Origin: Patescibacteria group bacterium
GTDB taxonomy: Bacteria > Patescibacteriota > JABMPQ01 > JAQVVF01
Direction: 5' to 3'
NCBI GenBank assembly: GCA_028699085.1
Contig: JAQVVF010000002.1
Coordinates: 68,557-132,556, forward strand
DNA: 64,000 nucleotides
This document shows positions 4,305 through 64,000 of the stretch, piece after piece (the first letter of the stretch is position 1; each line of letters starts with the position of its first letter). The translations under genes were made by a program, and so were the position numbers. The notes below the pieces were generated by a model. It had not been told where the DNA came from and ran no database searches. It saw only the letters and a program-made list of their open reading frames with translations.

Positions 4305-4349
4305 TATCGAAAATTATTACTTTATAAATTTTGTAACTTTAAAACTCCG

Positions 4350-8524: not shown

Positions 8525-10648
8525 TTATTTTCCTTCTTTTTTGCCAGTTCTTCCTTCAACAATCTGCAATTCTACATTCTTTGGAACTTGTTCATAATGA
8601 TCAAATTCCATTACGAAATTTCCACGTCCAGAAGTAATTGATCTGATTGTTGTTACATAGCCAAACATTGATGCAAGAGGAACCATGGCAGAAATAATTT
8701 TTAAGTTATCTCTATCTTCCATTTTTTGAATTTGTGCTCTTTTTGAATTTAAATCTCCAACAATATCACCCATGAACTCAGCTGGCATCATAGCTTCAAT
8801 TTTCATTATTGGTTCAAGTAAAATTGGTTTTGCTCTTCTCTCGCCTTCTTTCATCGCCATAGATGCAGCAATTTTGAAAGCAGCTTCAGAAGAATCAACA
8901 TCATGGAAAGATCCATCATATAATGTTGCTTTGATATCAATTACTGGATAACCAGCAATTACGCCTTCTGTTAATGCCTCTTTACAACCTTTTCCTACAG
9001 CAGGAATAAATTCTTGAGGAATGACACCACCTTTAATTTCATTAATAAATTCAAAACCTTTATTTCTTTCATTTGGTTCTAATCGGAGCCAAACATGTCC
9101 ATACTGACCATGACCACCTGATTGTCTAATATATTTTCCTTCAGCCTCAGCAGTACCCAAAATAGTTTCTTTATAAGCAACTTGTGGATTGCCAATATTA
9201 GCTTCGACTTTAAATTCTCTTTTCATTCTATCGACTAAAACATCCAAGTGTAATTCACCCATACCAGAAATAATTGTCTGCATTGTTTCTTCATCAGTAT
9301 GAACTTTAAAAGTAGGATCTTCTTCCGACAAAGCACGCAAAGCCATCGACATTTTTTCCTGATCAGCTTTTGTTTTTGGTTCAATGGCAATTGAAATAAC
9401 TGGTTCAGGAAAAGTAATTTTTTCCAACATAACAGGATGTTCCATATCACATAAAGTATCGCCAGTAGTAGTACCCTTTAAACCAACAATTGCTGCAATA
9501 TCACCAGCATAGACCTCATCCACTTCCTCTCTTTTATTTGCATGCATACGAATAATTCTACCGACTCTTTCTTTACTATCAGTTGAAGAATTCAAGACAT
9601 AAGATCCAGCTGTTAGAATACCTGAATAAACTCTAAAATAAACTAATTTTCCAACAAACGGATCAGTTGCTACTTTAAAAGCTAAAGCTGTAAATGGTTC
9701 AGTATCACTAACCTTTCTTTCAATTTTTTTTGTCTCGTCTTTTGGATCAAATGCAACTATTGCCGGCACATCTAAGGGGCTAGGCAAACAATCAATTACA
9801 TAATCTAATAACTTTTTGATAATTGCTTTTCTACCATCGCCACCCAAAACTGGAAAAAACTTTCCTGTCAAAGTTGCTTTTCTCAAAGCTGCTCTAATCT
9901 CTTCTTCAGTCAATTCTTGTCCTTCTAAATATTTCTCCATTAATTTATCATCAAATTCAACTATTTTTTCAATCATTTCAGCTCGATATTTTTCACACTT
10001 TTCTTTCATATCAGCAGGAATTTCTTTTGGCTCAGATAATTCCATACCCTCTTCTTTTGCATCGACATTAAAATAAGCCTTCATCATAATAAGATCTACA
10101 GCGCCTTTAATATCTTCGCCAGAACCAATTGGCAACATTACTGGATGAGCATTTTTTGATAATCTGCTGTGAATTGAATCTAAGCTTCTATAAAAATCAC
10201 CGCCAACTAAATTGATCTTATTCAAAAAACAAATTCTTGGAACATGATATTTGTCAGCTTGATGCCAAACAGTTTCCGATTGAGGCTCAACTCCCATTTT
10301 GCCATCAAAAACTACAACAGCTCCATCTAAAACACGCAAGGATCTTTCAACTTCTACTGTAAAATCAACGTGTCCAGGAGTATCAATAATATTAATACGA
10401 TGCTTGTCTTGTTCTTTTTTCCAAATTGGAGACCAAAAACAAGTTGTTGCAGCTGAAGTAATCGTAATTCCTCTTTCTTGTTCTTGTTCCATCCAATCCA
10501 TAGTAGCAGCGCCTTCATGAACTTCACCAATCTTATGTGAAATTCCAGTGAAAAACAAAATACGCTCAGTGATAGTTGTTTTACCAGCATCAATATGAGC
10601 TATAATTCCAATATTTCTTGTTTTTTCAAGTGAGTATTCTCTTGGCAT
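8525..10648 (-). CDS. fusA: Elongation factor G
   Basis: [17 protein letters not shown], 707 aa, EF-G domains IV/V. Confidence 0.97.
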
Positions 10649-10721: not shown

Positions 10722-11474
10722 TTATCTTACATCAAAAGGCAGAGTTAAAGGCTCTGAAAATGGCACTGTCACTTCTTCCAATAAGTATCTTTCAGCAATT
10801 CCTACATTAGATTCACATGCTCCCCCATTGGGCGTAAATGAAGCAATGGAAACAGATTGCTTTTGATTTCCATTTTTAACAAAATACCTATCTCCAAACA
10901 CTCTAAGAACTCTAAAATCATCAAGTGGACCATCTGTAATAAAAGCACTTCCTGTGCAATTTGCATCACTGAAATAGACTGTCAAAGAAGAATTTAAGTC
11001 AGCATCAATGTATAAAAATTTCTTCAACGACGGAATATAAATATCAAAAGTCCTTACACCAACATTATTATAAAATCTTAAACTAGCATCTACCAGTATT
11101 CCTAAATCTTGATTATTTGCATCATAAACATGCAATTGCATTCCAGGAACACCCTGTTCACCACGATCTCCTTTTTCTCCCCTTTCGCCTTGGATGCCTT
11201 TAATACCTTGCTCACCTTTATCACCCTTTTCACCTTGAGGTCCCTGATCTCCTTTTACTCCTTGTGGTCCTGTTGGCCCAACGACTGATTTGCTTCCTGC
11301 TTTTAATTTTGCGACATCAACACTTAAAGTATTTACTTTTTTCTTCAAATTTTTTACTAATGTCCAAATTGAAACTTTATTAGCAGCCTGAACAATTGTT
11401 ACACCAGATAATAAAAATAATACAAGAGATACCGCAACAATCGCAACTAAAAACTTTTTGTTTGATTCTTGCAT
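10722..11474 (-). CDS. Membrane-anchored collagen-like triple-helix repeat protein
   Basis: N-terminal TM segment, then 15 uninterrupted G-X-Y triplets (GPTGPQGVKGDQG...GEQGVPG), ~140 aa Cys-containing C-terminal domain. Confidence 0.7.
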   Translation of the reverse strand: MQESNKKFLVAIVAVSLVLFLLSGVTIVQAANKVSIWTLVKNLKKKVNTLSVDVAKLKAGSKSVVGPTGPQGVKGDQGPQGEKGDKGEQGIKGIQGERGEKGDRGEQGVPGMQLHVYDANNQDLGILVDASLRFYNNVGVRTFDIYIPSLKKFLYIDADLNSSLTVYFSDANCTGSAFITDGPLDDFRVLRVFGDRYFVKNGNQKQSVSIASFTPNGGACESNVGIAERYLLEEVTVPFSEPLTLPFDVR

Positions 11475-24555: not shown

Positions 24556-24891
24556 TCTCCCTCCTCTTTTGGGTTTCAACTATCACGAAATAATTTTCTA
24601 AAGATCTTTCTTTACATAAATTAATTTTCTTTAAACATTAATTTACATTACAACACTTTTCTATTTTGTCAATAAAAAAAGCCACATTGCTGTAGCTCTA
24701 CAAAAAGAACAAATTAACCACGAAGTTTCAAAAAATTCAATCTCTTATCTTTCGTTTTTCTCTGAATCGGAACTGTCAAAAATTTTTTCTTACAATGCTC
24801 AAAAGGAATACCTTCGCCTCGTCTTGTTTGATTTAACATAAAAACAGAATCTACCGACAAATGGTTGCTGAACAAAGTAATGAGCAATGCT

Positions 24892-32761: not shown

Positions 32762-34227
32762 TATTTTTTTCTTAATGCCCTCCAGATAATATAAATAATA
32801 ACATAATATATAATAACTAACCCAAACCAAATTTTTTTTACTTCAATTGCTGCCCAATTAAATTGCGAAAAAAATTCCACAATCTTAATCATATATGACA
32901 CAAACAACCAGGCAATCAATCCTAATAATTTTCCTAAAGGAAAAAATATTATTCCAGCTAATCCTCCCAAAAAACCAACTAGCATTGTAATCGGAATTAT
33001 CGGCAAGATCAACAAATTTGCTAAAGGTGAAATTAAAGATAATCTTTCAAAATTATTAAATATTATTGGTAAAACCAAAAATTGTGCAGCAAATGTTGTT
33101 GCTAATACCTCTCTCAACTTAAAGACATTCGGCATTTTTTTCAAATATCTCAAAATAATTGGCGTAAAATAAACAATTCCGATCGTTGCCAAAAATGATA
33201 ATTGGAATCCGACATCAAAAGACAAAAACAATGGATTAACTGTAACTATTGCAATTGCCGAAAACAATAACACATTGCGAATATTCGACATCCTGCCAAA
33301 ATTCAATGCCACAACAACTAATCCGCCCATAATTGATGCTCTAATCGCCGACGCTTGGATTCCAGTCAATAATACAAAAAATATTAAACCCAAAACAGCT
33401 AACCAAAACGCCTTTTTGCGATCAAAAACCATTATCCCAAGATATAACAGTATAGAAGAAATCACTGTCACGTGATAACCTGAAACAACAATTACATGAG
33501 ACACGCCAACTAAATTGAATTTATCCAATAATTCCTTCGGCAAACCGCTTTTATTTCCTAACAATAAACCATCAATCAACGATGCCTGAGGTTCTGGCAA
33601 AATTTTATTTATGCTGTCTCTAAAATAATATTTAATTTTCAAAACAAAATTAAATATAAAATTTCCTTTATTCTTATCAGCTAGAATAATCTCTGGATTA
33701 TATACTACAGAATAAATACCTGACTTTGCTAAATAATCACGATAATTAAATTCATTAAACTCTCCAGGATCTTTTAATTTAGCTTTTACTTCCAATAGAT
33801 CGCCATAATTAAAAACTGGATATCTTGGCACTGTAATCAAAATTCTGCCTTTTAAATTTTTATCAAGCTCTTTTGATCTTAAATTGCCAAGCACTAATTT
33901 TGTGTTTTCTATTCGTAAATCAGGTTCAACAATTACCGTTCCAACCAACACAATTTCCCTTTTTTCATTATAATATTGAATCCAATCACTATTTATTTTT
34001 GGCAAAGCTAATTCATATCGAAGCATACCAAGAAAGAAAACGATGATCCCAAATCCAATTACTAAACACACCTTAAATTTATGCCAAATAAAAATCAAAA
34101 TAAAAGCGCAATTTAAAAGCGCTAATTTTATTATTAAATCAATCAAAAAAAATTGAGATAAAAAAATCCCTCCTAAAAATGACACTCCAAGCCAAAAAAA
34201 TATTTTTGCTTTAGACAATTTGAACAC
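32761..34227 (-). CDS. ComEC/Rec2 N-terminal part (DUF4131 + competence membrane domain)
   Basis: Multi-TM protein with ComEC competence-domain-like segments; followed by MBL-domain gene. Confidence 0.75.
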   Translation of the reverse strand: MFKLSKAKIFFWLGVSFLGGIFLSQFFLIDLIIKLALLNCAFILIFIWHKFKVCLVIGFGIIVFFLGMLRYELALPKINSDWIQYYNEKREIVLVGTVIVEPDLRIENTKLVLGNLRSKELDKNLKGRILITVPRYPVFNYGDLLEVKAKLKDPGEFNEFNYRDYLAKSGIYSVVYNPEIILADKNKGNFIFNFVLKIKYYFRDSINKILPEPQASLIDGLLLGNKSGLPKELLDKFNLVGVSHVIVVSGYHVTVISSILLYLGIMVFDRKKAFWLAVLGLIFFVLLTGIQASAIRASIMGGLVVVALNFGRMSNIRNVLLFSAIAIVTVNPLFLSFDVGFQLSFLATIGIVYFTPIILRYLKKMPNVFKLREVLATTFAAQFLVLPIIFNNFERLSLISPLANLLILPIIPITMLVGFLGGLAGIIFFPLGKLLGLIAWLFVSYMIKIVEFFSQFNWAAIEVKKIWFGLVIIYYVIIYIIWRALRKK

Positions 34228-42896: not shown

Positions 42897-43282
42897 ATGA
42901 TAAACATTTGCCGGGCAATAGGAAAAAGAATTGATCAAAAATTTCTAGATGATTTTTCAAAAGAAGGTATCCTTTATGATTCAAAAAAAATCTGGCTTAC
43001 TATTACAGGCAATAGTGTGCGAACTCCTCGTTTTATCTGCGGAATTTCAAAACAATTAACACGCGGACAATTAATTAAAACCAAAAAAAATTAATTATCT
43101 TGGCTGGAAGTTTTAAAATTGTTGATATTCCTTTAGAGCATCCTCTATATCAAGAAATAATAATTGATCGCACAAAGCCAAAAAGATTTGTTATTACGCT
43201 TGATCTATCTAAATTTCCTGCTGGCTATTCAGGAAATATAAAATTATCTTTTCATTTAGATCCTAAAAGCGTTCTGATCTAA
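42897..43282 (+). other. Two short adjacent ORFs (65 and 60 aa) separated at an A8 tract; possibly one disrupted or slippage-prone gene
   Basis: Track ORFs 42897..43094 and 43100..43282 (TTG start); no family recognised. Confidence 0.2.
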
Positions 43283-43836: not shown

Positions 43837-43854
43837 AACAGAATAAAAAATCGC

Positions 43855-43884
43855 AATAATGCGATTTTATTTTATAATTTAATC
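43855..43884 (+). terminator. Rho-independent terminator after pth
   Basis: AATCGCA-ataa-TGCGATT then TTTATTTT. Confidence 0.6.
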
Positions 43885-43910
43885 ATGCTTTATCCATTTT
43901 CCTGTCTGCA

Positions 43911-43997
43911 AGCCTAAGCAAAAGCTTAAATTATAGCTACTCACAAAACTTAAGGAGGGATAGTTTTGCTTTGGCAACTCGCAGACAGAAAAATGAA
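43911..43997. ncRNA. Long imperfect hairpin (~24 bp total, 20-nt apical loop): candidate structured RNA or regulatory element
   Basis: CTGTCTGC/GCAGACAG outer stem, GCC/GGC, AAGCAAAA/TTTTGCTT, CTTAA/TTAAG inner stem; strand unassigned. Confidence 0.3.
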
Positions 43998-44088
43998 AAA
44001 AACTTTTTCATAACATATTAGCAAATGGAAAAAAAATGTCAAGATTCGAAATCTTGCCAAAAAGATAAAAATATGCTATCCTCTACCC

Positions 44089-47000
44089 ATGCTAGAACAA
44101 CTAGCCAAAACGCTTTCTTCAAACAAAAAAACGGTTTTTACCGGCATTTGTGAACAAGCAAAGCCATACATTATTACCAAGCTGATACCCCCAGAAAATC
44201 AAAATCAGCCGATTTTTTATTTTGTAAAAAATCATCAACTTGCATTATTCACATATTATAATCTAAAAAACTGGCAACACAATACCATAGCCAGAATTTT
44301 CAAACCAATCGAAGAAAAATCACTAAATCTAGACAATGAAAAAATACGACAAAATTTCATAGAAAAACAAAATTTTTTATCAGATATATCAGAAAATAAG
44401 CCTGGATTTTATGTTATTCCAATCGAACATATTGATAGCTCATGTCCAAAGATTAACAATTTTGAAAAAAATTTCTCAAGTGCTACAAAAAATGAGCTTA
44501 TAGATCCAAATGATTTAGCAAAAGATCTAACTTCTCAAGGATATGAACGAGCAACAAATGCCGTCTCAAAAGGATACTTTTCTAAGAAAGGCGGTCTTAT
44601 CGAAATATTTCCAATCAACAAAAAATATCCAGTCAGAATAGAATTTATTGGTAATAGAATTGAAGAAATTCAACTCTTTGATCCAAAAAATAGAAAAGGA
44701 TTAGAAAAAATTGATTTAATATTTATTCCACCTATCAAGACCAATGACAGTAACGGCAAGTTATCTGATTATTTAAAATTAACAAAAAAAGCAATTGCTA
44801 TTATTAACGATCCTCAAAGCTTAAAAGAATCCATCGATCCATTTTCTTACAAACCATACCAGCAATTCGAAAAAACAATCAGTGAATTAACACAAATTAT
44901 CATTCAATCTTTTCCTGAAGAAAAAACAATTGATCTTGATTTTTCATCAATTCCAAATTATAGCAACAATTTATTAGCTCTTAAAAAAGATTTACAAAAA
45001 TATCAAGATTTTAAAATAATTATTTTTACCCAAGAAGAAAAAATAATTAAAAAAATATTTGCTAATTTAAATATTGATCCTTCTGAAATAATTTTTGAAA
45101 AAAAAGAATACTTAAAAAATATTACGGGCTTTAAAAGCAATCAACATAAATTACTATTTTTAACTGACAATGAAATAATTCAAGAAAAAACTGAAAATAA
45201 AAAAAGAATTAATGAAGCTTTTATTTCCGAATTAAAAATTAACGACTTTTTAGTTCATGAAGATCATGGTATTTGTTTATTTAAAGGAACAACAAAAAGA
45301 ATTATTGATAAAATTGAAAAAGAATATTTGATTTTGGAATATGCCAATAACGATAAACTTTTTTTGCCAGTTGAATATTCTGAAAAAATAACTAAATATA
45401 TTGGCCAATCACATCCAAAAATCAATCGCCTTCATACTGCTTCTTGGTTAGAATTAAAAAGTAAAATAAAAAAAAGGACTGAAATTATTGCCAAGGATCT
45501 TCTAAAAATTTATGCCAGTCGCGAAAAATCACAAGGCTTTACTTTTTCAGCTGATACAGAGATTCAAAAAGAATTAGAAAATAGTTTTCCATATCAAGAA
45601 ACTCCTGATCAAATAAAAGTCATTAAAGAGGTAAAAGACGATATGGAAAAGAAAAAATCAAAAAAACCAATGGATCGATTAATTTGTGGCGATGTTGGTT
45701 TTGGTAAAACAGAAATCGCGTTACGTGCTGCTTTCAAAGCTACTCAAGATAAAAAACAAGTTGCTATTCTTTGTCCAACAACCATTCTTGCTAAACAACA
45801 TTTTGATAATTTCAAAAATCGATTAGAAAATTTTGATTTAAAAATTGCAGTTATTTCTCGCTTCCAATCAAAATTGCAACAACAAGATATCTTGGAAAAA
45901 TTATCAACTGGACAAATTGATATCATCATTGGTACTCACCGACTATTATCAACTGATATAAAATTTAAAGATTTAGGTCTTCTAATCTTAGACGAGGAAC
46001 AAAGATTCGGTGTTAAACATAAGGAAACAATCAAAAAATTAAAAGCTAATATTGATATTCTGGCATTATCAGCAACTCCAATTCCCAGAACTTTGAATTT
46101 ATCATTATCCGGACTTCGAGATATTAGTATTATCAGCACTCCGCCTCCAGGTAGACAATCAGTAATTAATTACATAAAGCCATATTCTGAAGATACAATC
46201 TATAATGCTTTCAAAAAAGAGCTTGATCGCAATGGCCAGATTTATTTTCTCCATAATAAAGTCCAAACTATCCAGGCTGCAACAGAAAAAATTAAAAATT
46301 TGTTAAAAAAATATAACAAGCCAATTTCAGTTGCCTTCGCTCATGGACAAATGCCAGAAAACAATCTTGAAAAAATCATGGCTGAATTTTACGACAAAAA
46401 AATTGATATTTTGATTGCTTCATCAATTATTGAGAATGGCCTTGATATTCCAAATGTTAATACCATCATTATTGATAATGCTTCCAATTTTGGTCTCGCT
46501 GATTTATATCAGCTAAAAGGAAGAGTCGGAAGAGGACAAAAACAAGCCTTTGCTTACTTTTTGTATAAAAGCACAGAATTAAAAGAAAAAGCAAGACGCA
46601 GATTAGAAGCATTGCTTGAAGCAAAAGAGCTTGGATCTGGTTTTCAATTGGCATTAAGAGATCTTGAAATTAGAGGTGCAGGAAATATTTTAGGTAAAGA
46701 GCAATCTGGCGCTGTCACAACAGTTGGCTTAAATTTATATTGCCGACTACTAAATCAGGCAATTCAAAATCTAAAATCAGGACAAGAAAAGACAACTGAA
46801 GAAAAAATATCGCCAACTCTTGATTTGCCATTATCAGCTTATTTATCTGAAAAAATATTTCCTAATTTTGAAAAAAGATTAAAACTATACCAACAAATTA
46901 CGAATATCGAAAATATTAATGAACTAGAACAACAAAAAAACAATCTGCTCAAAGACATCGTAAATAATAGCGCTGAAGCAAATACTCAAATAAACTACTT

Positions 47001-55729: not shown

Positions 55730-56965
55730 TTATTTAAGTCCTGGCATTTCATATTTTCCACACAACTTCTTAACTTCATTCTTTATCCTTTTTAAAACTC
55801 GTTCGTTATTCACATTCTCGCTTACTTCATTCATCCAAAAAGCAATTTGCTTCATTTCTTTTTCTTTCATACCCAAAGTTGTTATTGCCGGTGTTCCAAT
55901 CCTAATTCCAGACGGATCAAAAGGTGAGCGCTTATCATAAGGTACTGTATTTGCATTACATTCAATTCCTGCTTTGATTAAAGCAGACGACATTTGTTTG
56001 CCAGACAAATTCTTGTTTGTCATATCAATTAAAATCAAATGATTGTCAGTTCCACCAGTTACCAAATCAAAATTATAATTTAATAATTCTTTTGCCAAAG
56101 CTTGAGCGTTTTTGATAATCTGCTTAGCATAATTCTTAAATTTTGAAGTATCAGCTTCTTTCAACGCTACAGCAATTGCCGCAGTTGTATTATCATGCGG
56201 TCCCCCTTGAAGACCAGGAAATACGGCTTTATCAATCAATTTAGCATGTTTTTCTTTACACATAATCATCGCTCCTCTTGGACCTCGTAAAGATTTATGT
56301 GTTGTCGTTGTTACAACATCAGCATAAGGAACTGGACTTTGATGCAATCCTGCTGCTACTAATCCTGAAATATGGGCAATATCAGCCAAAAAATAAGCAC
56401 CAACCTCATCAGCAATCTCTTTGAATTTTTTAAAATCAATCTTACGAGGATAAGCAGTTGCACCAGCAACAATAATCTGTGGTTTTTCACGTTTTGCTAT
56501 CTCTAAAATTTCATCGTAATCTAACAGGTTCGTTTTTTTATCAACAGCATATTGAACCGCATTAAAAAACTTGGCAGTTGCTGAAACTTTCCAGCCATGA
56601 GTTAGATGTCCGCCATGAGGCAAGCTCATTCCCATTATTTTTTCTGAAGGTTTAAGTAAAGCAAAATAGACCGCCAAATTTGCTGGAGAACCAGAATATG
56701 GCTGAACATTAACATGATCTGCCCTGAACAACTTTTTTGCTCGGGCTACAGCTTCTTCTTCAATTTGATCAATGTACTCTTGTCCTTCATAATATCTTTT
56801 TCTAGAATAGCCTTCAGAATACTTATTTGTCAAAATAGAGCCAGTTGCTTCTAATACGCTCTTTGAAACATAATTTTCAGAAGGAATTAAACGAATACTC
56901 TCAGCTTGTCTTTTCTGTTCTTTTTTAATAAGATCGTAAATCTTTCTATCTGTTGCTTTTAGCAT
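55730..56965 (-). CDS. glyA: Serine hydroxymethyltransferase
   Basis: TTTTHKSLRGPRG PLP-lysine motif. Confidence 0.95.
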   Translation of the reverse strand: MLKATDRKIYDLIKKEQKRQAESIRLIPSENYVSKSVLEATGSILTNKYSEGYSRKRYYEGQEYIDQIEEEAVARAKKLFRADHVNVQPYSGSPANLAVYFALLKPSEKIMGMSLPHGGHLTHGWKVSATAKFFNAVQYAVDKKTNLLDYDEILEIAKREKPQIIVAGATAYPRKIDFKKFKEIADEVGAYFLADIAHISGLVAAGLHQSPVPYADVVTTTTHKSLRGPRGAMIMCKEKHAKLIDKAVFPGLQGGPHDNTTAAIAVALKEADTSKFKNYAKQIIKNAQALAKELLNYNFDLVTGGTDNHLILIDMTNKNLSGKQMSSALIKAGIECNANTVPYDKRSPFDPSGIRIGTPAITTLGMKEKEMKQIAFWMNEVSENVNNERVLKRIKNEVKKLCGKYEMPGLK

Positions 56966-57019
56966 AATTTAAAATTTAAATATCAAAAATAAAAATTACA
57001 ATGCAAAATTTAAAATTTT

Positions 57020-57643
57020 TTATTTTACATTGTCATTTTCCATTTTGATTTTTGCATTTTCAATTTTCACATCTCCTTGTCTTAACATTTTAATTTTATT
57101 TTCAGTTACATCAACTACTGTTGAGATATGGCCTTCTGTTAATTTTCCGCCATCGATCACTAAATCAGGTTCATTGCTTTTTCCCTCAAACTGTTTCTTA
57201 ATGTCTTCAACAGAATAGCAAGTCTTCTCGCCTGCCAAATTTGCACTTGTTGAAGTTACTGGAAAATCTACCTTCTCCATTATTTTTTTTATTAAATCAT
57301 AACTTGATATTCTAATTCCTAATGTATTTTTTACAAAAGGAATATTTTTTTTATTTTTTAAAACCAAAGTTAAAGGTCCAGGCAAATATTTTTTTGCCAA
57401 TTCCAATGCATTGTTATTAATCTCAACATATTCTTTTGCCATTTCCAAATCTTTCATAAAAACAGATAATTCCTTACTAACATCGCGCTGCTTAATCTCA
57501 AAAACCTTTTTAACAGCATCTTTACTCAAAGCATTAGCCAGTATTCCATAAGCAGTTTCTGTCGGTGCAACAATAACTTTATTATCTTTTAAATATTTTA
57601 TAATCTCATCAATTTTTATTTCATCGATATCAACTATTTTCAT
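57020..57643 (-). CDS. tsaC: L-threonylcarbamoyladenylate synthase (YrdC/TsaC/Sua5 family)
   Basis: VIVAPTETAYGILANA, PGPLTLVL YrdC motifs. Confidence 0.82.
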   Translation of the reverse strand: MKIVDIDEIKIDEIIKYLKDNKVIVAPTETAYGILANALSKDAVKKVFEIKQRDVSKELSVFMKDLEMAKEYVEINNNALELAKKYLPGPLTLVLKNKKNIPFVKNTLGIRISSYDLIKKIMEKVDFPVTSTSANLAGEKTCYSVEDIKKQFEGKSNEPDLVIDGGKLTEGHISTVVDVTENKIKMLRQGDVKIENAKIKMENDNVK

Positions 57644-57761
57644 AGCAATTACTTTATAAACTTTAGAAACTAATTAATTTATCTTATCATAGCCAAAACT
57701 TATTGCAAAGTTTTCTCATCTTGTTAAAATATAATTAAGATTATTAAATAATCCAAAACAA

Positions 57762-57926
57762 ATGGCAAAAGCAAAATTTGTTGGCAACAAAGAAACAAAA
57801 ATGTGCCACGTATCAGGATGCGGTGCTTTGAAAAACATCAAAAAAAGCAATCGCGAGAATTTTTCTTCCTGCAAAATTGCACAAAAAAAAGGCTACAAAT
57901 GCTGCAAGCTTTGTGGTAAAAAATAG
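57762..57926 (+). CDS. Small (54 aa) Ada-type metal-binding domain protein; not in ORF track
   Basis: FVGNKETKMCHVSGCGALKNIKKSNRENFSSCKIAQKKGYKCCKLC parallels Ada N-terminal Zn domain pattern F-x6-T-x2-C-x3-C...EN-x2-F...G-[FY]-x2-C-K-x-C. Confidence 0.5.
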   Translation: MAKAKFVGNKETKMCHVSGCGALKNIKKSNRENFSSCKIAQKKGYKCCKLCGKK

Positions 57927-57940
57927 TTAAAATATAAAAA

Positions 57941-57967
57941 GACAGCACTGCTGAAGGGCTGTCTTTA
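57941..57967. terminator. Terminator hairpin between convergent genes
   Basis: AAAGACAGC-actgctgaagg-GCTGTCTTT. Confidence 0.55.
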
Positions 57968-57977
57968 AAATTAAAAA

Positions 57978-58709
57978 TTATTTTACCATTTGCTTTGCTC
58001 TTTCAAGCTCTTCTGGCCTATTTATTCCAAGTACATTATTTAAATCAGTAGTTACTACAGTATCTAACTTTAATCCTTTTTTATTCATAATCTCAATCAG
58101 ATCAGTCAAATAATATTCTTTCTGAACATTATTATCAGTAATTAAATCTAAATTGTCTAATAATGCTTTTACTTTAAAACAATAAACGCCAATATTCATT
58201 TCTGAAATTTTCAATTCTTCTGCGGTTGCATCTTTTTGCTCAACAATTTTCAAAACATTATTATCTTTATCTCTAATTATTCGCCCCCATTCAGGCGGAT
58301 TTTTTTTGATATCAACTGTCAGTATGCAACCATCTAAATTATTCTTTTCACATTTGTCTAATAACGACAAAAACATTTCTTTTTTCAAAAAAGGCATATC
58401 TCCATAAGAAATCAAAACATATCCATCAGCATGCATTAATAAATCCTTTGCCTGCATTACAGCATGTCCAGTACCCAATTGTTCTTTTTGATATACATAT
58501 TCAACTCTATTTTTTAAATAATCTCTGACTAATTCTTGTTTAAAACCAACAACTAAAATAATTTTTTCAACATTCAGATCTTCCATTGTTCTTACCTGGT
58601 ACTCAATCATTGGTTCCTCGCCTATCTTCATCATCACTTTTGGCATATCAGTACAATTTAATCTTGTCCCTTTTCCTCCTGCCAAAATGACTGAAATAAT
58701 ATTTTTCAT
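57978..58709 (-). CDS. Sugar-phosphate nucleotidyltransferase (GlmU N-terminal / RmlA-like)
   Basis: ILAGGKGTRL, LGTGHAV motifs; 243 aa without acetyltransferase hexapeptide domain. Confidence 0.78.
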   Translation of the reverse strand: MKNIISVILAGGKGTRLNCTDMPKVMMKIGEEPMIEYQVRTMEDLNVEKIILVVGFKQELVRDYLKNRVEYVYQKEQLGTGHAVMQAKDLLMHADGYVLISYGDMPFLKKEMFLSLLDKCEKNNLDGCILTVDIKKNPPEWGRIIRDKDNNVLKIVEQKDATAEELKISEMNIGVYCFKVKALLDNLDLITDNNVQKEYYLTDLIEIMNKKGLKLDTVVTTDLNNVLGINRPEELERAKQMVK

Positions 58710-58751
58710 AAATTTAAATAAAATAAAAAGTGAAACTAGTTCACTTTAATT

Positions 58752-59345
58752 CTAACCCAAAGTTCGAAACCATTCAAGAATTGCCTGTGCATTTTGTTCC
58801 GCTGATTTACCAGTTGTATTCAGCAACAATTTCTTTTTCATTCTACTACTTGCAAATGCTTCTCGATATGCATCACGCTTTCGAAAAATACTTTTCAAAT
58901 CTTTGTCCCAATTACCAGTTTTTCCTAAAATCCGCCTTTCTTCCATCCTTCTATGCAATTCATCGTCATCAACATCTAACACAATCAAACAAACTCCAAT
59001 ACTATTCAGATATTCTTCCAACTCGTCATGCTCTGTATCAATTCCATGGAACAGTTTCAAATACACGATATCGGTCAGATGCAAACGCAACATTAATACT
59101 TCCTCATGTTCAGCAGCTTCAAAAACAGGCAAAAGAGATTCCATCTTTGTCCTTCCATATTCAACCATTTCCCACAACTTACCTTCATAAGACGCAACAA
59201 CAGCTGGATGATAATACCCATGAACAGTTACTGACACACATTCAGTGAATAACCTCTCCAATTCTGCCATAATGCTCGATTTTCCAGATTGATTACAACC
59301 TTCAAGAATACCCTTGAACAGCTGCATTCCCTTCCCTCCTTGCAA
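58752..59345 (-). CDS. P-loop nucleotide/nucleoside kinase-like protein (dNK/TMPK-like Walker A), atypical composition
   Basis: ILEGCNQSGKSS Walker A; GC visibly higher than neighbours. Confidence 0.55.
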   Translation of the reverse strand: MQGGKGMQLFKGILEGCNQSGKSSIMAELERLFTECVSVTVHGYYHPAVVASYEGKLWEMVEYGRTKMESLLPVFEAAEHEEVLMLRLHLTDIVYLKLFHGIDTEHDELEEYLNSIGVCLIVLDVDDDELHRRMEERRILGKTGNWDKDLKSIFRKRDAYREAFASSRMKKKLLLNTTGKSAEQNAQAILEWFRTLG

Positions 59346-59428
59346 AGTACGTTATCTTAAGATTATATAATAAAAATAAAAAAAGTCAAGATTACTTGGC
59401 TTTATTTTTTAACCATTTTTTTATAATT

Positions 59429-60082
59429 CTACAATATACATTTTACAATATTTGTTGCTTGATAAAGGCCTTTTACAGTAAAATTATTCAGTTCTGCTTT
59501 CTCTTCTGAATATTTACCGCCTGGTCTTTCAATCTTGATTGCTACAATATATGGAAAACCTCTTTTTATATAATCAATGTTATCAGGCACATCTTCTATG
59601 ATTGCAATTTTTTTATCTCGATGCTCATTAATCACATCTTTCAATACATCTTTCATAAAACTGCCATCGCCTTCAGTCACAATAATTTTTGAGAAAAAAC
59701 CATTTATTTGGCAACTATTAATTTTTGCCTCTTGGAATCTTTTTGTCCCTAATGAAACTAAAAATAGCTCACATTCATCCTTGATACTCTCCAAGAATGA
59801 AATGACATCATCGTACAAATAAGTTTTTGAATTTGAAACAAGACCGTTTACTTCAGCCATTAGGCTTTGAATATCCGTAATCTCACCTTCCAAAAGTCTC
59901 AAATGCAAAGCAGGATCATAAGGCCTTTTTAACTTTTTTTTAATATATGTGTAAGTTTGTTCATATCTTTCAGAAGACACATTATAACGCATAAAAATAG
60001 TCTTCAAATGCCTCTTGAAAAGCTCGGTATTGAATATGGTATGATCAAAGTCTAATATTACTAATTTATCCTTTTTTAACAT
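59429..60082 (-). CDS. HAD-superfamily hydrolase
   Basis: LVILDFDHTIF (DxDxT motif I). Confidence 0.55.
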   Translation of the reverse strand: MLKKDKLVILDFDHTIFNTELFKRHLKTIFMRYNVSSERYEQTYTYIKKKLKRPYDPALHLRLLEGEITDIQSLMAEVNGLVSNSKTYLYDDVISFLESIKDECELFLVSLGTKRFQEAKINSCQINGFFSKIIVTEGDGSFMKDVLKDVINEHRDKKIAIIEDVPDNIDYIKRGFPYIVAIKIERPGGKYSEEKAELNNFTVKGLYQATNIVKCIL

Positions 60083-61056
60083 AATTTTAACAAAATCTTA
60101 GCTAACTTATTTGGATCATGATGAATCAGACTTCGCTTCAAAATATCGCCTTTTTTCTTTTCTTTAAGCTTGCCCAATAAATCTGCACCAACAAATCCCA
60201 ATTTGGATTTACTAGCTGAGTATTCAACAAAGCTTTCCTTTCTTTTTTTGTATTCTGTAAGGACTTTTTCATCAGGTCTCACATTATTATATAACACAAA
60301 ATCTATTTTTGAGCCAGAATATTTTTTGACAATACTAACATGTTCCTGAACACTAAAATTGTTCGTCTGCCCCCACTTGGTCATTAAATTACAAACATAT
60401 ACTTTTTTAGCTTTACTAATCTTTAAAGCATTAGCAACTCCAGGAACACACAAGCATGCCACAACCGATGTATACAAATCTCCAGGTCCAATTACAATTA
60501 GATCAGCATCCAAAATTGCCTTCACAACCTTAGAATTAACCTTAATTTTCGGCTCAATCCAAGCTTTTTCAATCTTCAATTTGCCCTCAAATCCAACAAC
60601 TTCATCAATTAAAGTTTCAGACTTTATAATTTGCCTATTTTCAAGCTCAATACATAAATTAGCTCTCTTCAAGGCAACAGGAAATATATCAGCCTTAATT
60701 TTTAATTCTTTTTTCAATTCATCAATCGCTTTTTCAATATTGTTATTTTTTTCCTGCAAATTAGCAATGATAATATTCCCCAAATTATGGCCTGCCAATT
60801 TTCCTTTTTCAAAACGTAAATCCAAAATCTCTTGCCATTTTTTATTTTCTGGCATCAAAGCCAAAATCATCTTTCTCAAATCTCCCATTGGCAACAAATC
60901 TATATTTTCTTTCAATAATCTACCAGTTGATCCCCCATTATCAGTAATTGGATAAATTCCTGTTAGTTCACAATTTTTTGCATTTTTCAAACCACCTAAA
61001 ACAACGCTTGCTCCTGTTCCACCGCCGAGATAAACAATTTTCTTGACTTTTTGCAT
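60076..61056 (-). CDS. yvcK: YvcK/CofD-family (UPF0052) gluconeogenesis factor-like protein
   Basis: VYLGGGTGASVVLGGL and ITDNGGSTGRL motifs. Confidence 0.85.
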   Translation of the reverse strand: MQKVKKIVYLGGGTGASVVLGGLKNAKNCELTGIYPITDNGGSTGRLLKENIDLLPMGDLRKMILALMPENKKWQEILDLRFEKGKLAGHNLGNIIIANLQEKNNNIEKAIDELKKELKIKADIFPVALKRANLCIELENRQIIKSETLIDEVVGFEGKLKIEKAWIEPKIKVNSKVVKAILDADLIVIGPGDLYTSVVACLCVPGVANALKISKAKKVYVCNLMTKWGQTNNFSVQEHVSIVKKYSGSKIDFVLYNNVRPDEKVLTEYKKRKESFVEYSASKSKLGFVGADLLGKLKEKKKGDILKRSLIHHDPNKLAKILLKLC

Positions 61057-61113
61057 AGAAATGTAATTATGTAGAAAGTTAACGATTCCACCTTAGACAG
61101 AAGGAGAGAAAAA

Positions 61114-61338
61114 ATGCAAACGCGCAAAAATCTCCAGATATTTCTTCTCGTAATTGAAATCCTCTTAATAATAGCAGTCATATACCCAATCGCCCTTTCA
61201 ATCTTTAATTTCGTAACAAAGAACGAAAGTATCTATCAAATCGCCAGCAACAATAGTAATTTAATACCTTTGTACGGTTCTTTTATCCTCTTAATTTGTG
61301 GAATTTTTTATGCAAGATACGATCTAAAAAAACAATAA
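61114..61338 (+). CDS. Small two-TM membrane protein (hypothetical)
   Basis: 74 aa; preceded by AAGGAGAG RBS 7 nt upstream. Confidence 0.4.
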   Translation: MQTRKNLQIFLLVIEILLIIAVIYPIALSIFNFVTKNESIYQIASNNSNLIPLYGSFILLICGIFYARYDLKKQ

Positions 61339-61417
61339 CCAGCCCTTTCTCAACCTCATCCGAGGTTTTTTTGTATTCGAAAATAAATTTGATTTATTCG
61401 AAAAATTATTAGAGTGA

Positions 61418-63235
61418 TTATTCCACTGTTACGCTCTTTGCCAAATTCCTCGGCTTATCAACATCCAAGCCTTTTATTTCTGCCATATGATAAGCCAAAA
61501 GTTGTATTGGAATTACTGTTAGCAAAGGCTCCAACATTTCCAAAGTTTCTGGAATATAAATCACATCATCAACATATTTTTCGATTTCATAATTATCTTC
61601 TGTTGTTACAGCAATAATTTTTCCTGATCTTGCTTTAATTTCCTGCATATTGCTAATTGTTTTATCATAAACACTATCTTTTGGCGCTACAAAAACGCAT
61701 GGAAATTTTTCATCAATCATTGCAATTGCGCCATGTTTCATCTCGCCAGCAGAATAACCTTCGGCATGCACATAAGAAATTTCTTTCATTTTCAAAGCAC
61801 CTTCCAAAGCTAATGGATAATTGAATCTTCTGCCTAAATAAAGGAAATTTTTATAATCACGATATTTTTCCGCCAAGTTTTTTATTTTATCATTTTGTTC
61901 TAAAATCTTTTTGATCTTTTCTGGAATTTTTTTAATCTCGGAAGCTATTTCTTTTCCTTCCATAAAAGACAAATTTCTCACTCTACCAAATTCCAATGCC
62001 AAAATTGCTAAAACTGTAATTTGCGCTAAAAATGCTTTTGTAGAAGCAACTCCAATTTCTGGTCCAGCATGAACAAACACTCCGCCATCAGTCTCACGCG
62101 CAATTGTTGATCCAACAACATTAGAAATTCCTAACACCTTAATTCCTTTTCGCTGAATCTCTCGCATTGCTGCAATCGTATCAGCTGTCTCACCAGATTG
62201 CGAAATCACAAAAACCAAAGTATCTTTATCTAGTAAAATTCTTTTGTAACGTAATTCTGATGCGCATTCTGCCTCGCAAGGGATAGAAGCACATTCTTCA
62301 ATCATATATTTCCCAACCAATCCAGCATGCAAAGCAGTACCACAAGCAATAAAAATAATTCTTTTAACCTTCAATAATTCTTCTGTTGTTAAATTCAAAC
62401 CGCCTAAATGCGCAATACCTTCTGAAGGAATAATTCTTCCAGCAAAAGCATTTTCCATTATTTTTGGTTGTTCAAAAATTTCTTTCAACATGAAATGATT
62501 GAATCCTTTCTTTTCTGCTAAATCAGCTTCCCAATCAATTTCATGTATTTTTGAATCAACTTTTTTATCATCAATTGTAATTGTATAGAAACCATCTTTT
62601 GTGATTTCCACAATTTCATTTTCCTCAATAAAAACTACTTTTTTTGTGTATGGCATCAAAGCCGTCGCGTCAGAAGCAAAATAATTTTCGCCCTCGCCAA
62701 CTCCCACGACTAATGGACTGCCATGACGGGCTGCTACAATTCTATCAGGTTCTTTAGATGAAATTACAACAATTCCATATGTTCCATCAACACAAAGTAG
62801 TGCACGCCTTACTGCCTCTTTTAGATTTCCTTCATAATATTTTTCAATCAAATGCGATAATACTTCTGTATCAGTTTCTGACCGAAATTTATGGCCTTCG
62901 TTAATTAATTGTTCTTTCAATTTCGCAAAATTTTCAATAATGCCATTATGAATTACTGCAATTTTTCCTTCACAATCTAGATGCGGATGAGCGTTTTGAT
63001 CAGTCACTCCACCATGAGTTGCCCATCTTGTATGACCCATACCAATTGTTCCAACAAGATTTGTCATTTCCAAATTTTGCCCAATTCTTCCAACACTTTT
63101 TACAAAATTAATTTTACCAGAATCTACAGTTGCCAATCCCCAAGAATCATACCCGCGATATTCTAATTTTTTCAAACCATCAACCAAAATTGGCGATGCT
63201 TTTTTATCTCCGATATAAGCAATTATTCCACACAT
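61418..63235 (-). CDS. glmS: Glutamine--fructose-6-phosphate aminotransferase
   Basis: MCGIIAYIG N-terminal nucleophile Cys, two SIS domains, 605 aa. Confidence 0.97.
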   Translation of the reverse strand: MCGIIAYIGDKKASPILVDGLKKLEYRGYDSWGLATVDSGKINFVKSVGRIGQNLEMTNLVGTIGMGHTRWATHGGVTDQNAHPHLDCEGKIAVIHNGIIENFAKLKEQLINEGHKFRSETDTEVLSHLIEKYYEGNLKEAVRRALLCVDGTYGIVVISSKEPDRIVAARHGSPLVVGVGEGENYFASDATALMPYTKKVVFIEENEIVEITKDGFYTITIDDKKVDSKIHEIDWEADLAEKKGFNHFMLKEIFEQPKIMENAFAGRIIPSEGIAHLGGLNLTTEELLKVKRIIFIACGTALHAGLVGKYMIEECASIPCEAECASELRYKRILLDKDTLVFVISQSGETADTIAAMREIQRKGIKVLGISNVVGSTIARETDGGVFVHAGPEIGVASTKAFLAQITVLAILALEFGRVRNLSFMEGKEIASEIKKIPEKIKKILEQNDKIKNLAEKYRDYKNFLYLGRRFNYPLALEGALKMKEISYVHAEGYSAGEMKHGAIAMIDEKFPCVFVAPKDSVYDKTISNMQEIKARSGKIIAVTTEDNYEIEKYVDDVIYIPETLEMLEPLLTVIPIQLLAYHMAEIKGLDVDKPRNLAKSVTVE

Positions 63236-63398
63236 AATAATAAAATTTAAAATTAATACTCAACCTGTTAATTCATAATATTATATTTTTTCATCTATTT
63301 CAAGACACTTGTCCGCCAAAAATTTTTGACAAAAACAAATAAAAACCGGCCAAAAACCGATTTTTTTAATTTTCTTCAAAATTTTTTATTTTTAAGTT

Positions 63399-63974
63399 TT
63401 ACTTTTTTATCACAACCATCGCTTTTCTGCCATTCAAAATCGGATAAGGATTTGATTTGCTAGTTCCATCAATAAAATCATGAATTGAATCAAACAAATT
63501 ATCAAAAGTATATCTGAATTTAAATCCTTGCCATACTCCTGGATCATTAGTAATAAAACCATTCTCATCAAATCCTACAACCACTAAATTATGATAAACA
63601 GGTCCTGGAGCTGTAAAATGTGGATTAGCTAGCAATTGACCAGCAGTTGGCACTAATACTGGATTGCCTTTTGCAACTTCTTCTTTAATATCATCAATCA
63701 TAATATCATATTTAACTTCCACATTCTTATAACCATAATATTCCTTAGCTAATTTGGCAATATTTTCAGCCTTCAAATCATAATGTCCGCCCCAATTCTG
63801 CATTTGCCAATCTACCATATCTAAAATTTCCTGATTTGCCACATTCTTTGGCATTTCTTGATTAAAATATTCACCTTTTAGATAATGATCGATCATCATT
63901 AAAGAGGCTTCCTCACAAGCTTCTTGCCATGGTTCTGCCCAATTTTGATAAGGCGCTTGACAAGTAAAAGGCAC
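63399..63974 (-). CDS. Papain-like / C39-like cysteine peptidase domain protein (N-terminus may lie beyond the window)
   Basis: FTCQAPYQNW...CEEASLMM Cys-containing N-terminal motif and distal His/Asn-rich region; weak call. Confidence 0.35.
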   Translation of the reverse strand: MPFTCQAPYQNWAEPWQEACEEASLMMIDHYLKGEYFNQEMPKNVANQEILDMVDWQMQNWGGHYDLKAENIAKLAKEYYGYKNVEVKYDIMIDDIKEEVAKGNPVLVPTAGQLLANPHFTAPGPVYHNLVVVGFDENGFITNDPGVWQGFKFRYTFDNLFDSIHDFIDGTSKSNPYPILNGRKAMVVIKK

Positions 63975-64000
63975 CTCTAAATCACAAGCTTCTGGAATCA

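What the first reader, a model, noticed from the sequence alone, without database searches (positions are those of the whole stretch)
43905..44003. Extended ~24-bp imperfect hairpin with 20-nt apical loop between pth and mfd
After the pth terminator, an 87-nt element folds into 8 bp (CTGTCTGC/GCAGACAG), 3 bp, 8 bp (AAGCAAAA/TTTTGCTT) and 5 bp (CTTAA/TTAAG) stacked stems, with a purine-rich asymmetric bulge GAGGGAUAG and a 20-nt loop. It is too long and too structured for a simple terminator. It lacks the GNRA-capped helix expected of SRP RNA. It may be an uncharacterised small RNA, a leader for mfd, or a protein-binding site.
Basis: seen in the sequence. Interest (0 to 1): 0.5.

Follow-up and report, generated by a model that had tools for sequence, protein, structure and literature searches.

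The report
Conserved small RNA with anti-Shine-Dalgarno loop
The "hairpin" between pth and mfd is a separate small RNA gene on the opposite strand, absent from Rfam 15. It is shared by many Patescibacteria (CPR bacteria) and folds into a long rod whose exposed loop always carries CCUCCU, the sequence ribosomes use to recognise mRNAs.

Summary
It is an independent non-coding RNA gene on the minus strand.

- **Transcription unit:** near-consensus promoter (TTGACA, 16 nt, TGcTAATAT; 44042-44015), inferred start near 44008, structured core 44003-43887, intrinsic terminator 43868-43847.
- **Conservation:** a covariance model finds 37 strong homologues in about 170 pth loci. All are Patescibacteria-type, and all lie downstream of and convergent with pth. 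No locus labelled Bacillota, Chloroflexota or Gastranaerophilales has one.
- **Structure:** a three-way junction. P1 is 19 bp in the model and 26 bp in the window; the others are a 3-bp helix, hairpin P2 and variable hairpin P3. Of all aligned base-pair cells, 91% are paired, against 37-48% when partners are slid. 33 of 35 pairs show compensatory changes.
- **Functional site:** the P2 loop carries CCUCCU in 37 of 37 homologues, usually AUCCCUCCUUA, which resembles the 16S rRNA 3' tail.
- **Known families:** no Rfam 15 family matches; SRP, 6S and 5S RNAs are all absent from the hits.

I infer that the loop pairs with GGAGG-type ribosome-binding sites, or mimics the 16S tail. The function is untested. 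A related rod-shaped RNA with the same loop sits in tandem with it in some genomes.

The parts
44037..44042 (-). -35 promoter hexamer TTGACA of the RNA gene
   Evidence: Promoter scan. Invariant in the 5 close relatives while the spacer varies. A TTGAC(A/T)-type -35 with a TAnnnT -10 lies upstream of 29 of 37 homologues.
44015..44023 (-). Extended -10 element TGcTAATAT
   Evidence: 16-nt spacer, TG present. Conserved as TGnTA(A/T)GAT in relatives. A TG extension is seen in at least 17 homologues.
44008..44008 (-). Inferred transcription start (about +/-2 nt)
   Evidence: Inference: 7 nt downstream of the -10 hexamer. Not measured.
43840..44008 (-). Predicted primary transcript, about 169 nt (start to end of terminator U-tract)
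   Evidence: Promoter and terminator scan; fold of this stretch gives -56.1 kcal/mol.
43894..43996 (-). Conserved structured core (covariance-model match)
   Evidence: R1 110.5 bits, E = 4e-27. R2 106.5 bits. It is the only match in the 64-kb window.
43977..44003 (-). P1 closing stem, 5' arm
   Evidence: MFE fold. The 19 modelled pairs are 96.3% paired and 17 of them show compensatory changes.
43887..43913 (-). P1 closing stem, 3' arm
43974..43976 (-). P1b short helix, 5' side (UGC; usually GGY in homologues)
   Evidence: Pairs with 43935-43937. All 3 pairs covary and 83% of cells are paired. The outer pair is U-U in the window and A-U in L165.
43935..43937 (-). P1b short helix, 3' side (GCU; usually RCC)
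43970..43973 (-). Internal loop, 5' strand CAAA (GAAA in most homologues)
   Evidence: GAA/AAA present in 30 of 37 homologues.
43938..43942 (-). Internal loop, 3' strand GAGUA (loop-E / sarcin-ricin-like AGUA)
   Evidence: AGUA present in 18 of 37 homologues. The motif assignment rests on my own knowledge and is not tested in 3D.
43962..43969 (-). P2 hairpin, 5' arm GCAAAACU
   Evidence: All 8 pairs show compensatory changes; 84.6% paired.
43943..43950 (-). P2 hairpin, 3' arm AGUUUUGU
43951..43961 (-). P2 apical loop AUCCCUCCUUA carrying the invariant CCUCCU (anti-Shine-Dalgarno-like); proposed functional site
   Evidence: CCUCCU in 37 of 37 homologues with variable flanks. Mean probability of being unpaired is 0.86. 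Only 2 of 37 transcripts contain a GGAGG that could pair with it internally.
43930..43934 (-). A-rich junction (AUAAU) between P1b and P3
   Evidence: Alignment A3 consensus.
43914..43929 (-). P3 hairpin (UUAAGC-UUUU-GCUUAG). Its length varies among homologues and it is absent in L173.
   Evidence: The 5 base pairs at its foot all covary; 88% paired.
43847..43868 (-). Intrinsic terminator hairpin, followed by a U-tract at 43840-43846. It is bidirectional and also ends pth.
   Evidence: Equivalent terminators, or a U-tract directly after an extended P1, occur in homologues.

Best explanation
Window 44042-43840, minus strand, is a free-standing gene for a stable small non-coding RNA. The structured core is about 120 nt and the primary transcript about 169 nt.

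**Supported by the sequence comparisons (no transcript or 3D data)**
- It has a conserved strong promoter and a terminator.
- Its 5' and 3' ends pair into a long rod (P1).
- The rod opens into a three-way junction: a 3-bp helix stacked under hairpin P2, and a variable hairpin P3.
- P2 presents an 11-13-nt loop that always contains CCUCCU.

**Inferred**
- The loop is the working part.
- Most likely it base-pairs with GGAGG-type (Shine-Dalgarno) sequences of mRNAs and blocks or modulates their translation. It would act in trans, and in some lineages in cis on a small gene just downstream.
- The scaffold serves mainly to keep the RNA stable and the loop exposed.

My confidence that this is an independent, conserved, structured RNA gene on the minus strand is about 0.9. 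My confidence that it works by pairing with Shine-Dalgarno-like sequences is about 0.4. The single confidence value given (0.55) is a compromise between these two figures.
For: **Strand and transcription unit**
- The -35 is invariant, the spacer varies and the extended -10 is conserved in close relatives.
- Promoter-like sites lie upstream of 29 of 37 homologues, and terminators or U-tracts lie downstream.
- The model scores 110.5 bits on the minus strand and 28.4 on the plus strand.
- G-U pairs occur only on the minus strand.

**Independence from neighbouring genes**
- The block is 90-94% identical in relatives whose Pth protein is only 77-86% identical.
- Flanking genes are inserted or lost around it.
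- In L069 it sits directly upstream of two tRNA genes on the same strand.

**Family**
- There are 37 strong hits, E = 1e-6 to 1e-28. Fourteen were not in the seed.
- All are downstream of and convergent with pth.

**Structure**
- 91.4% of cells are paired, against 37-48% when partners are slid.
- 33 of 35 pairs show double changes.
- The covariation score is 0.729 against 0.28 in shuffles (0 of 500 reach it).
- Single-sequence MFE folds give the same fold independently.

**Functional loop**
- CCUCCU is present in 37 of 37, the flanks vary, and P(unpaired) is 0.86.
- No conserved internal partner exists.
- A second scaffold, 'type B', carries the same loop motif and sits in tandem in L044, L069 and L103.
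- The few strong ribosome-binding sites in the window (AAGGAGGGA at 59333-59341; AGGAGGGA at 24558-24565) are exact complements of the loop.
Against: - There is no transcript evidence. Promoter, start and terminator are all inferred from sequence.
- The window genome hardly uses Shine-Dalgarno sequences: about 6 of 64 long ORFs. The RNA is nevertheless extremely conserved there, so a general 'titrate all SDs' role cannot explain it in this lineage.
- Phylum-wide conservation of sequence and of position next to pth is unusual for base-pairing regulatory RNAs. It is more typical of housekeeping RNAs that bind proteins.
- Predicted targets rest on 8-9-nt matches only.
Confidence: 0.55

Rival explanations
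1. Molecular mimic of the 16S rRNA 3' tail. The loop AUCCCUCCUUA imitates AUCACCUCCUUA and binds or sequesters a protein, a ribosomal site or a nuclease that normally recognises the anti-SD tail. Alternatively, it supplies an anti-SD in trans in lineages whose 16S rRNA has lost it.
For: - The most common form of the loop differs from the canonical 16S tail at one position (the 16S sequence is from my own knowledge and from the title of Tu et al. 2011 as cited in PMC10582724).
- The RNA stays conserved in an SD-poor genome.
- The anti-SD motif CCTCCT was detected at the 16S 3' end in only 48% of Parcubacteria (PMC9297842).
- Phylum-wide conservation and a loop-E-like internal loop in about half of the homologues would suit a protein-binding RNA.
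Against: - Only CCUCCU is invariant; the 'AUC' part varies.
- The best-known binder of this tail, Era, is missing from most CPR (PMC10582724).
- The motif sits in a closed loop, not in a free 3' tail.
- No partner has been identified, and the 16S rRNA of these genomes was not available here.
Confidence: 0.2
2. Cis-acting 5' leader or type-I-toxin-like module. The RNA is the untranslated leader of a small gene just downstream on the same strand, and its CCUCCU loop sequesters that gene's ribosome-binding site.
For: - In L031, L055 and L159 a small hydrophobic ORF (66-92 aa) with a strong AAGGAGG/GGGAG site starts 36-77 nt after the RNA.
- L165, L169 and L174 have SD-led hypothetical genes 110-140 nt downstream.
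Against: - 18 of 37 homologues, including the window, have no ORF of 60 aa or more starting within 400 nt downstream.
- The downstream genes that do exist are mostly unrelated to one another (only those of L165 and L174 are alike), and terminators intervene in many loci.
- In the window the RNA runs into the 3' end of the convergent pth gene.
Confidence: 0.08
3. Highly divergent signal-recognition-particle (4.5S) RNA of CPR bacteria.
For: - It is a rod-like RNA with paired ends, a single copy in the window and its own promoter.
- The 3' strand AGUAGCCA resembles AGCAGCCA of E. coli 4.5S helix 8, and the CUGUYU...GRCAG flanks are alike. This is from memory and is a lead only.
Against: - No SRP family hit at E <= 10 in three homologues scanned in short stretches.
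- There is no GNRA tetraloop. P2 is 8 bp with an 11-13-nt loop.
- The AGCA/AGG symmetric loop is not present.
- An extra hairpin P3 is present.
- Tandem paralogues occur in some genomes.
Confidence: 0.04
4. Plus-strand element as first read: a pth terminator extension, an mfd leader, or a 15-aa peptide gene behind the AAGGAGG site.
For: - On the plus strand there is a perfect AAGGAGG, a 7-nt spacer and a TTG start opening a 15-codon ORF (MLWQLADRKMKKTFS).
- The element lies between pth and mfd.
Against: - The ORF exists only in the 5 closest relatives, and 27 of 37 homologues have no start codon at all.
- The plus strand scores 28 bits against 110 bits.
- The position relative to mfd is not conserved.
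- A separate pth terminator exists.
- No conserved plus-strand promoter is seen.
Confidence: 0.02
5. DNA-level palindrome: a protein-binding site, a repeat element or a recombination site.
For: It is an imperfect inverted repeat lying between divergent promoters.
Against: - Compensatory changes preserve pairing rather than sequence.
- G-U pairing is strand-asymmetric.
- There is a single copy in 64 kb.
- The invariant part is the unpaired loop.
Confidence: 0.02

Closest known systems
C-rich ('UCCC-motif') regulatory RNAs of Bacillota: RsaE/RoxS and the RNAIII hairpins (Geissmann et al. 2009, PMC2790875)
   Same: It is an independently transcribed small RNA with a C-rich sequence held unpaired in a hairpin loop, complementary to GGAGG/GGGA ribosome-binding sites. 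No Hfq-type chaperone need be assumed.
   Different: There is no sequence or structural homology and no Rfam hit. The motif is the full anti-SD hexamer CCUCCU. The scaffold is a long rod with a three-way junction. Conservation spans much of a superphylum, with fixed synteny next to pth. sRNAs of this kind are usually confined to a family or order.
3' tail of 16S rRNA (anti-Shine-Dalgarno, ...GAUCACCUCCUUA)
   Same: The loop AUCCCUCCUUA matches 10 of the last 11 nt, including the CCUCC core.
   Different: It is presented in a closed hairpin loop of a small RNA, not as a free 3' end after helix 45. The flanks outside CCUCCU vary.
6S RNA and CsrB/RsmZ-type decoy RNAs
   Same: These are abundant, stable, rod-like RNAs that work by imitating a nucleic-acid ligand of the expression machinery. 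This parallel is one of concept only.
   Different: There is no central bubble, no GGA repeats, no Rfam match, and no evidence of a protein partner.
Bacterial small SRP (4.5S) RNA
   Same: Similar size, a rod shape with paired ends, an internal loop near the apex, and a short GGY/RCC helix.
   Different: The defining GNRA tetraloop and the AGCA symmetric loop are absent. An extra hairpin is present. No covariance-model match was found.

Membership tests
Bacterial small SRP RNA (RF00169) | Match to the family covariance model | tested here: not met
   No SRP hit at gathering score in the window, nor at E <= 10 in short scans of the window element, L105 and L173.
Bacterial small SRP RNA (RF00169) | Helix 8 capped by a GNRA tetraloop on a short stem | tested here: not met
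   P2 is 8 bp with an 11-13-nt loop containing CCUCCU in 37 of 37 homologues.
Bacterial small SRP RNA (RF00169) | Symmetric loop with conserved AGG / AGCA strands (Ffh M-domain site) | tested here: not met
   The strands are GAAA / (G)AGUA, and AGUA is present in only 18 of 37. The SRP consensus itself is from my own knowledge.
6S RNA (RF00013) | Covariance-model match; long rod with a large central bubble | tested here: not met
   No hit. The conserved fold is a three-way junction without a central bubble.
5S rRNA (RF00001) | Covariance-model match | tested here: not met
   No hit at E <= 10.
Intrinsic terminator | Short G+C-rich stem directly followed by a U-tract | tested here: not met
   The terminator scan reports only 43847-43868. 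The element is not followed by a U-tract on the plus strand. In some homologues an extended P1 plus U-tract ends the RNA itself.
C-rich (UCCC / anti-SD motif) base-pairing sRNAs | C-rich motif kept single-stranded in a loop | tested here: met
   CCUCCU in 37 of 37; P(unpaired) 0.86; no internal GGAGG partner in 35 of 37.
C-rich (UCCC / anti-SD motif) base-pairing sRNAs | Own promoter and terminator; not part of an mRNA | tested here: met
   (sequence evidence only).
C-rich (UCCC / anti-SD motif) base-pairing sRNAs | Demonstrated pairing with ribosome-binding sites of target mRNAs and an effect on translation | not testable with these tools
   Only 8-9-nt complementary sites were found in the window.
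Loop-E / sarcin-ricin internal loop | AGUA opposite GAA, flanked by helices | tested here: inconclusive
   AGUA in 18 of 37 and GAA/AAA in 30 of 37. No 3D test was possible.

The most novel reading that the evidence does not exclude
The RNA is a stand-alone anti-Shine-Dalgarno module. It would be a stable RNA that imitates or replaces the 16S rRNA 3' tail, and it would act with the ribosome or its factors to select or silence the few GGAGG-led mRNAs. This would matter most in Parcubacteria-type lineages, whose 16S rRNA has lost the anti-SD and whose genes have largely lost SD sequences. That would be a new layer of translation-initiation control: mimicry of the ribosome's own mRNA-recognition sequence.
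Probability: 0.15. Interest if true: 0.9.

Novelty: new variant of a known kind. Interest (0 to 1): 0.72.

Why it matters
CPR/Patescibacteria have tiny genomes and almost no described regulatory RNAs. A strongly promoted small RNA that is structurally conserved across much of the group and displays the exact anti-Shine-Dalgarno hexamer is therefore notable. It would be one of very few lineage-wide non-coding RNAs known there.

It also bears on an open puzzle. Many Parcubacteria lack the anti-SD in 16S rRNA (PMC9297842), and this window's genome barely uses SD sequences. How such organisms control translation initiation is unknown.

The finding yields a ready covariance model, precise coordinates and a single 6-nt site to mutate. 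That makes the question testable in the few cultivated CPR systems and in metatranscriptomes.

Tried and rejected
- **Rfam.** I scanned the whole window at gathering score, made four short scans at E <= 10 (window element, L105, L173 and type B in L064), and scanned 20 homologue-bearing loci at gathering score. Only tRNAs and chance microRNA-type hairpin hits appeared. The best non-miRNA hit was rli51 at 25 bits, against a threshold of 48.
- **Relatives from the genome and metagenome collections.** Close relatives came from the protein search followed by exact-protein contig look-ups.
- **Canonical SRP domain IV.** A regular-expression search of all held DNA found one hit, in a Lachnospiraceae locus. 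This is uninformative.
- **Viral contigs.** A pattern scan gave 44 matches. None was confirmed by the covariance model, so they are chance matches.
- **Plus-strand peptide.** Rejected.
The inner helices are rejected.
- **Link between the RNA and SD usage.** Per-locus SD usage was too noisy to test this. The RNA occurs in both SD-poor and SD-rich loci.
- **Literature.** Six searches covered CPR non-coding RNAs and anti-SD mimics. None describes this RNA. One preprint could not be opened.

Full report
**1. The observation**

Window 43905-44003 does contain a long imperfect inverted repeat. It folds better than dinucleotide shuffles on both strands, and better on the minus strand:
- plus strand: -32.3 kcal/mol, z = -3.9;
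- minus strand: -38.8 kcal/mol, z = -5.3;
- no shuffle out of 200 folds as well on either strand.

Pth is named as a 'Patescibacteria group bacterium' protein. The window has about 31% G+C.

**2. It is a gene on the other strand**

A promoter scan finds a near-consensus site on the minus strand: TTGACA (44042-44037), a 16-nt spacer, and TG-extended TAATAT (44020-44015). A bidirectional terminator hairpin lies at 43847-43868.

In an alignment with four relatives the pattern is that of a promoter followed by a transcribed RNA. The -35 hexamer is invariant and the spacer varies. The -10 region and everything from about 44010 down to 43893 are almost invariant.

The few substitutions in the closing stem produce G-U or A-U pairs on the minus strand but C-A mismatches on the plus strand.

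A covariance model scores the window element at 110.5 bits on the minus strand and 28.4 bits on the plus strand. The start at about 44008 is inferred from the -10 position and has not been measured.

**3. Conservation and independence from neighbours**

The collection scans returned only distant pth loci. The protein search found Pth relatives of 60-86% identity, and exact-protein look-ups gave their contigs.

The block 43893-44046 is 90-94% identical in DNA in relatives whose Pth protein is only 77-86% identical.

Its neighbours change from locus to locus:
- In L162 two minus-strand genes separate it from mfd.
- In L165, L169 and L174 a gene separates it from pth.
- In L170 an FKBP gene and others replace mfd.

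So it is neither a pth trailer nor an mfd leader.

nhmmer and then covariance model R1 found it in many distant loci. There are 37 strong matches, with E from 1e-6 to 1e-28, and 14 of them were not in the seed. All are on the strand opposite to pth and lie 21-1634 nt beyond its stop codon (pth ends).

No locus labelled Bacillota, Chloroflexota or Gastranaerophilales has a significant match (E <= 0.05). One Clostridiaceae locus, L036, gave only a weak, short match (47 nt; 18 bits, E = 0.14).

Promoter-like sites (TTGACA-type -35, often with a TG-extended -10) precede 29 of 37 homologues. Terminators, or a U-tract directly after an extended P1, follow many of them.

In L069 the RNA lies directly upstream of two tRNA genes on the same strand. 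That is typical of a stable RNA.

**4. Structure**

Single-sequence MFE folds of 23 homologues give the same architecture repeatedly:
- a long closing stem, P1, formed by the two ends;
- a 3-bp helix, P1b (GGY/RCC);
- an internal loop (GAAA opposite (G)AGUA);
- hairpin P2;
- an A-rich junction;
- a variable hairpin, P3.

On the model-based alignment of 37 sequences, 91.4% of base-pair cells are standard pairs. Sliding the partners gives 37-48%. 33 of 35 pairs show changes on both sides. The covariation score is 0.729 against 0.28 in shuffles, and 0 of 500 shuffles reach it. The alignment was fitted to the model, which favours the structure somewhat. The slid controls and the independent MFE folds argue that the signal is real.

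| Helix | Pairs | Cells paired |
|---|---|---|
| P1 (modelled part) | 19 | 96% |
| P1b | 3 | 83% |
| P2 | 8 | 85% |
| P3 (base) | 5 | 88% |

L173 lacks P3 altogether and is a plain rod.

**5. The invariant loop**

The P2 loop contains CCUCCU in 37 of 37 homologues. The flanks vary, and the commonest form is AUCCCUCCUUA. In the window its mean probability of being unpaired is 0.86. Only 2 of 37 transcripts contain a GGAGG that could pair with it internally, so the loop is available for a partner.

CCUCCU is the anti-Shine-Dalgarno motif, and the common loop form differs from the 16S 3' tail AUCACCUCCUUA at one position. The 16S sequence is from my own knowledge, from the motif as given in PMC9297842 and from the title of Tu et al. 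2011 as cited in PMC10582724.

A second, simpler rod-shaped RNA ('type B') has the loop ...UCCUCCUUG... It occurs in other loci and sits in tandem with the first type in L044, L069 and L103. In L044 it has its own TTGACA promoter. Two scaffolds presenting the same hexamer point to the hexamer as the functional element.

**6. What it is not**

- **Any Rfam family.** No Rfam 15 family matches. There is nothing at gathering score in the window or in 20 homologue loci, and nothing credible at E <= 10 in short scans of three homologues. SRP, 6S and 5S are all absent.
- **A peptide gene.** The plus-strand 15-codon ORF behind AAGGAGG exists only in the five closest relatives.
- **A repeat.** There is one copy in 64 kb.
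- **A viral element.** It was not found in viral contigs.

**7. Mechanism (inferred)**

The simplest reading is a base-pairing RNA whose exposed anti-SD-like loop binds GGAGG-type ribosome-binding sites. The C-rich loops of RsaE/RoxS and RNAIII in Bacillota work this way (PMC2790875).

Two observations complicate a 'global SD titration' model.
- The window genome is SD-poor. About 6 of 64 long ORFs have AGGAG or GGAGG before an early start codon, and pth and mfd have none. The RNA is nevertheless under very strong constraint there.
- The conservation is superphylum-wide and syntenic, which is unusual for this kind of regulator.

In an SD-poor genome the few strong sites would become specific targets. 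AAGGAGGGA at 59333-59341 and AGGAGGGA at 24558-24565 both lie just upstream of start codons.

In some lineages an SD-led small ORF follows the RNA within 36-77 nt, so cis sequestration is possible there.

The main alternative is mimicry of the 16S tail towards a protein or the ribosome. Its interest comes from the report that only 48% of Parcubacteria 16S genes carry the anti-SD motif (PMC9297842). Era, the classic binder of that tail, is missing from most CPR (PMC10582724). I could not examine the 16S rRNA of these genomes.

**8. Novelty and verdict**

The family is not in Rfam 15, and none of six full-text searches turned up a description.

By working principle it most resembles C-rich SD-binding sRNAs. 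It is not a member of any of those families. It differs in its scaffold, in carrying the full CCUCCU hexamer, and in its breadth of conservation.

I rate it a new variant of a known kind. There is a 15% chance of something more novel: a stand-alone anti-SD mimic acting with the translation machinery.

- **Supported by sequence comparison:** conserved promoter-like and terminator signals, strand, homologues, covarying three-way-junction structure, invariant loop.
- **Inferred:** transcription start, RNA abundance, pairing with SD-like sites.
- **Unknown:** expression, partners, phenotype.

Noticed in passing
L044:4281-4360, L069:5464-5561, L103:710-808, L071:4007-4098, L017:4089-4180, L064:3865-3962 (also L080, L141, L142), L089:3585-3667 (all minus strand): A second, related RNA type ('type B'). 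It is a plain rod (CUACUUGC-YUAAGGG ... CCCUU ... GCAAGUAG) with an apical loop ..UCCUCCUUG.. In L044, L069 and L103 it lies in tandem, 25-250 nt upstream of the three-way-junction type. In L044 it has its own TTGACA promoter. No Rfam match.
   Followed up: partly
window, whole (for example upstream of 43315 and 44089): The genome is poor in Shine-Dalgarno sequences. Only about 6 of 64 long ORFs have AGGAG or GGAGG before an early start codon. Upstream regions are A/T-rich. This fits the reported loss of the 16S anti-SD in part of Parcubacteria (PMC9297842).
   Followed up: partly
window 44054-44091: mfd looks leaderless. TTGCCA, a 17-nt spacer and TG-extended TATCCT end at 44082, and the ATG is at 44089, with no ribosome-binding site. 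This promoter is back-to-back with the RNA promoter; the two -35 boxes are 11 bp apart. The arrangement is conserved in L167, L165 and L169.
   Followed up: partly
window 59333-59341, 24558-24565, 34166-34174 (minus strand): Rare strong GGAGGG-type sites (AAGGAGGGA, AGGAGGGA, AGGAGGGAU) are exact complements of the RNA loop. Two lie just upstream of start codons: a 191-aa P-loop-kinase-like gene and a 217-aa gene of unknown function.
   Followed up: partly
L069:4959-5254: The RNA is followed within about 12 nt by two tRNA genes on the same strand. Together with the type-B RNA upstream, this looks like a stable-RNA cluster.
   Followed up: partly
L172:1-60: A second, truncated copy of the RNA's 5' half lies at the contig end, about 1.5 kb from the complete copy (1515-1616). 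It could be a real duplication or an assembly repeat.
   Followed up: no
L165:3592-4134, L174:657-1214, L162:4433-4975 and 3822-4328, L169:3624-3965: Hypothetical minus-strand genes with no Pfam domain are inserted next to the RNA in close relatives but are absent from the window. Those immediately downstream of the RNA (L165, L169, L174) have unusually strong purine-rich ribosome-binding sites for this SD-poor lineage, and those of L165 and L174 are homologous to each other (180 and 185 aa).
   Followed up: partly
window 42897-43094 and 43100-43282 (plus strand): Two small ORFs (65 and 60 aa) lie between der and pth and have no Pfam match. The first was also called as a gene in the Logan contig (L161).
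   Followed up: no
window 1-40000 and 56000-64000: GC skew is strongly negative (-0.17 to -0.38; C 19.5% against G 12.1% overall). It tracks the strand that carries most genes and is near zero at 40-56 kb, where genes are on the plus strand.
   Followed up: no
window 10722-11474 (minus strand): A 250-aa ORF with collagen-like triple-helix repeats sits inside the ribosomal str-operon region (S12, S7, and a 707-aa ORF at 8525-10648 that is EF-G by size and position only, not checked).
   Followed up: no
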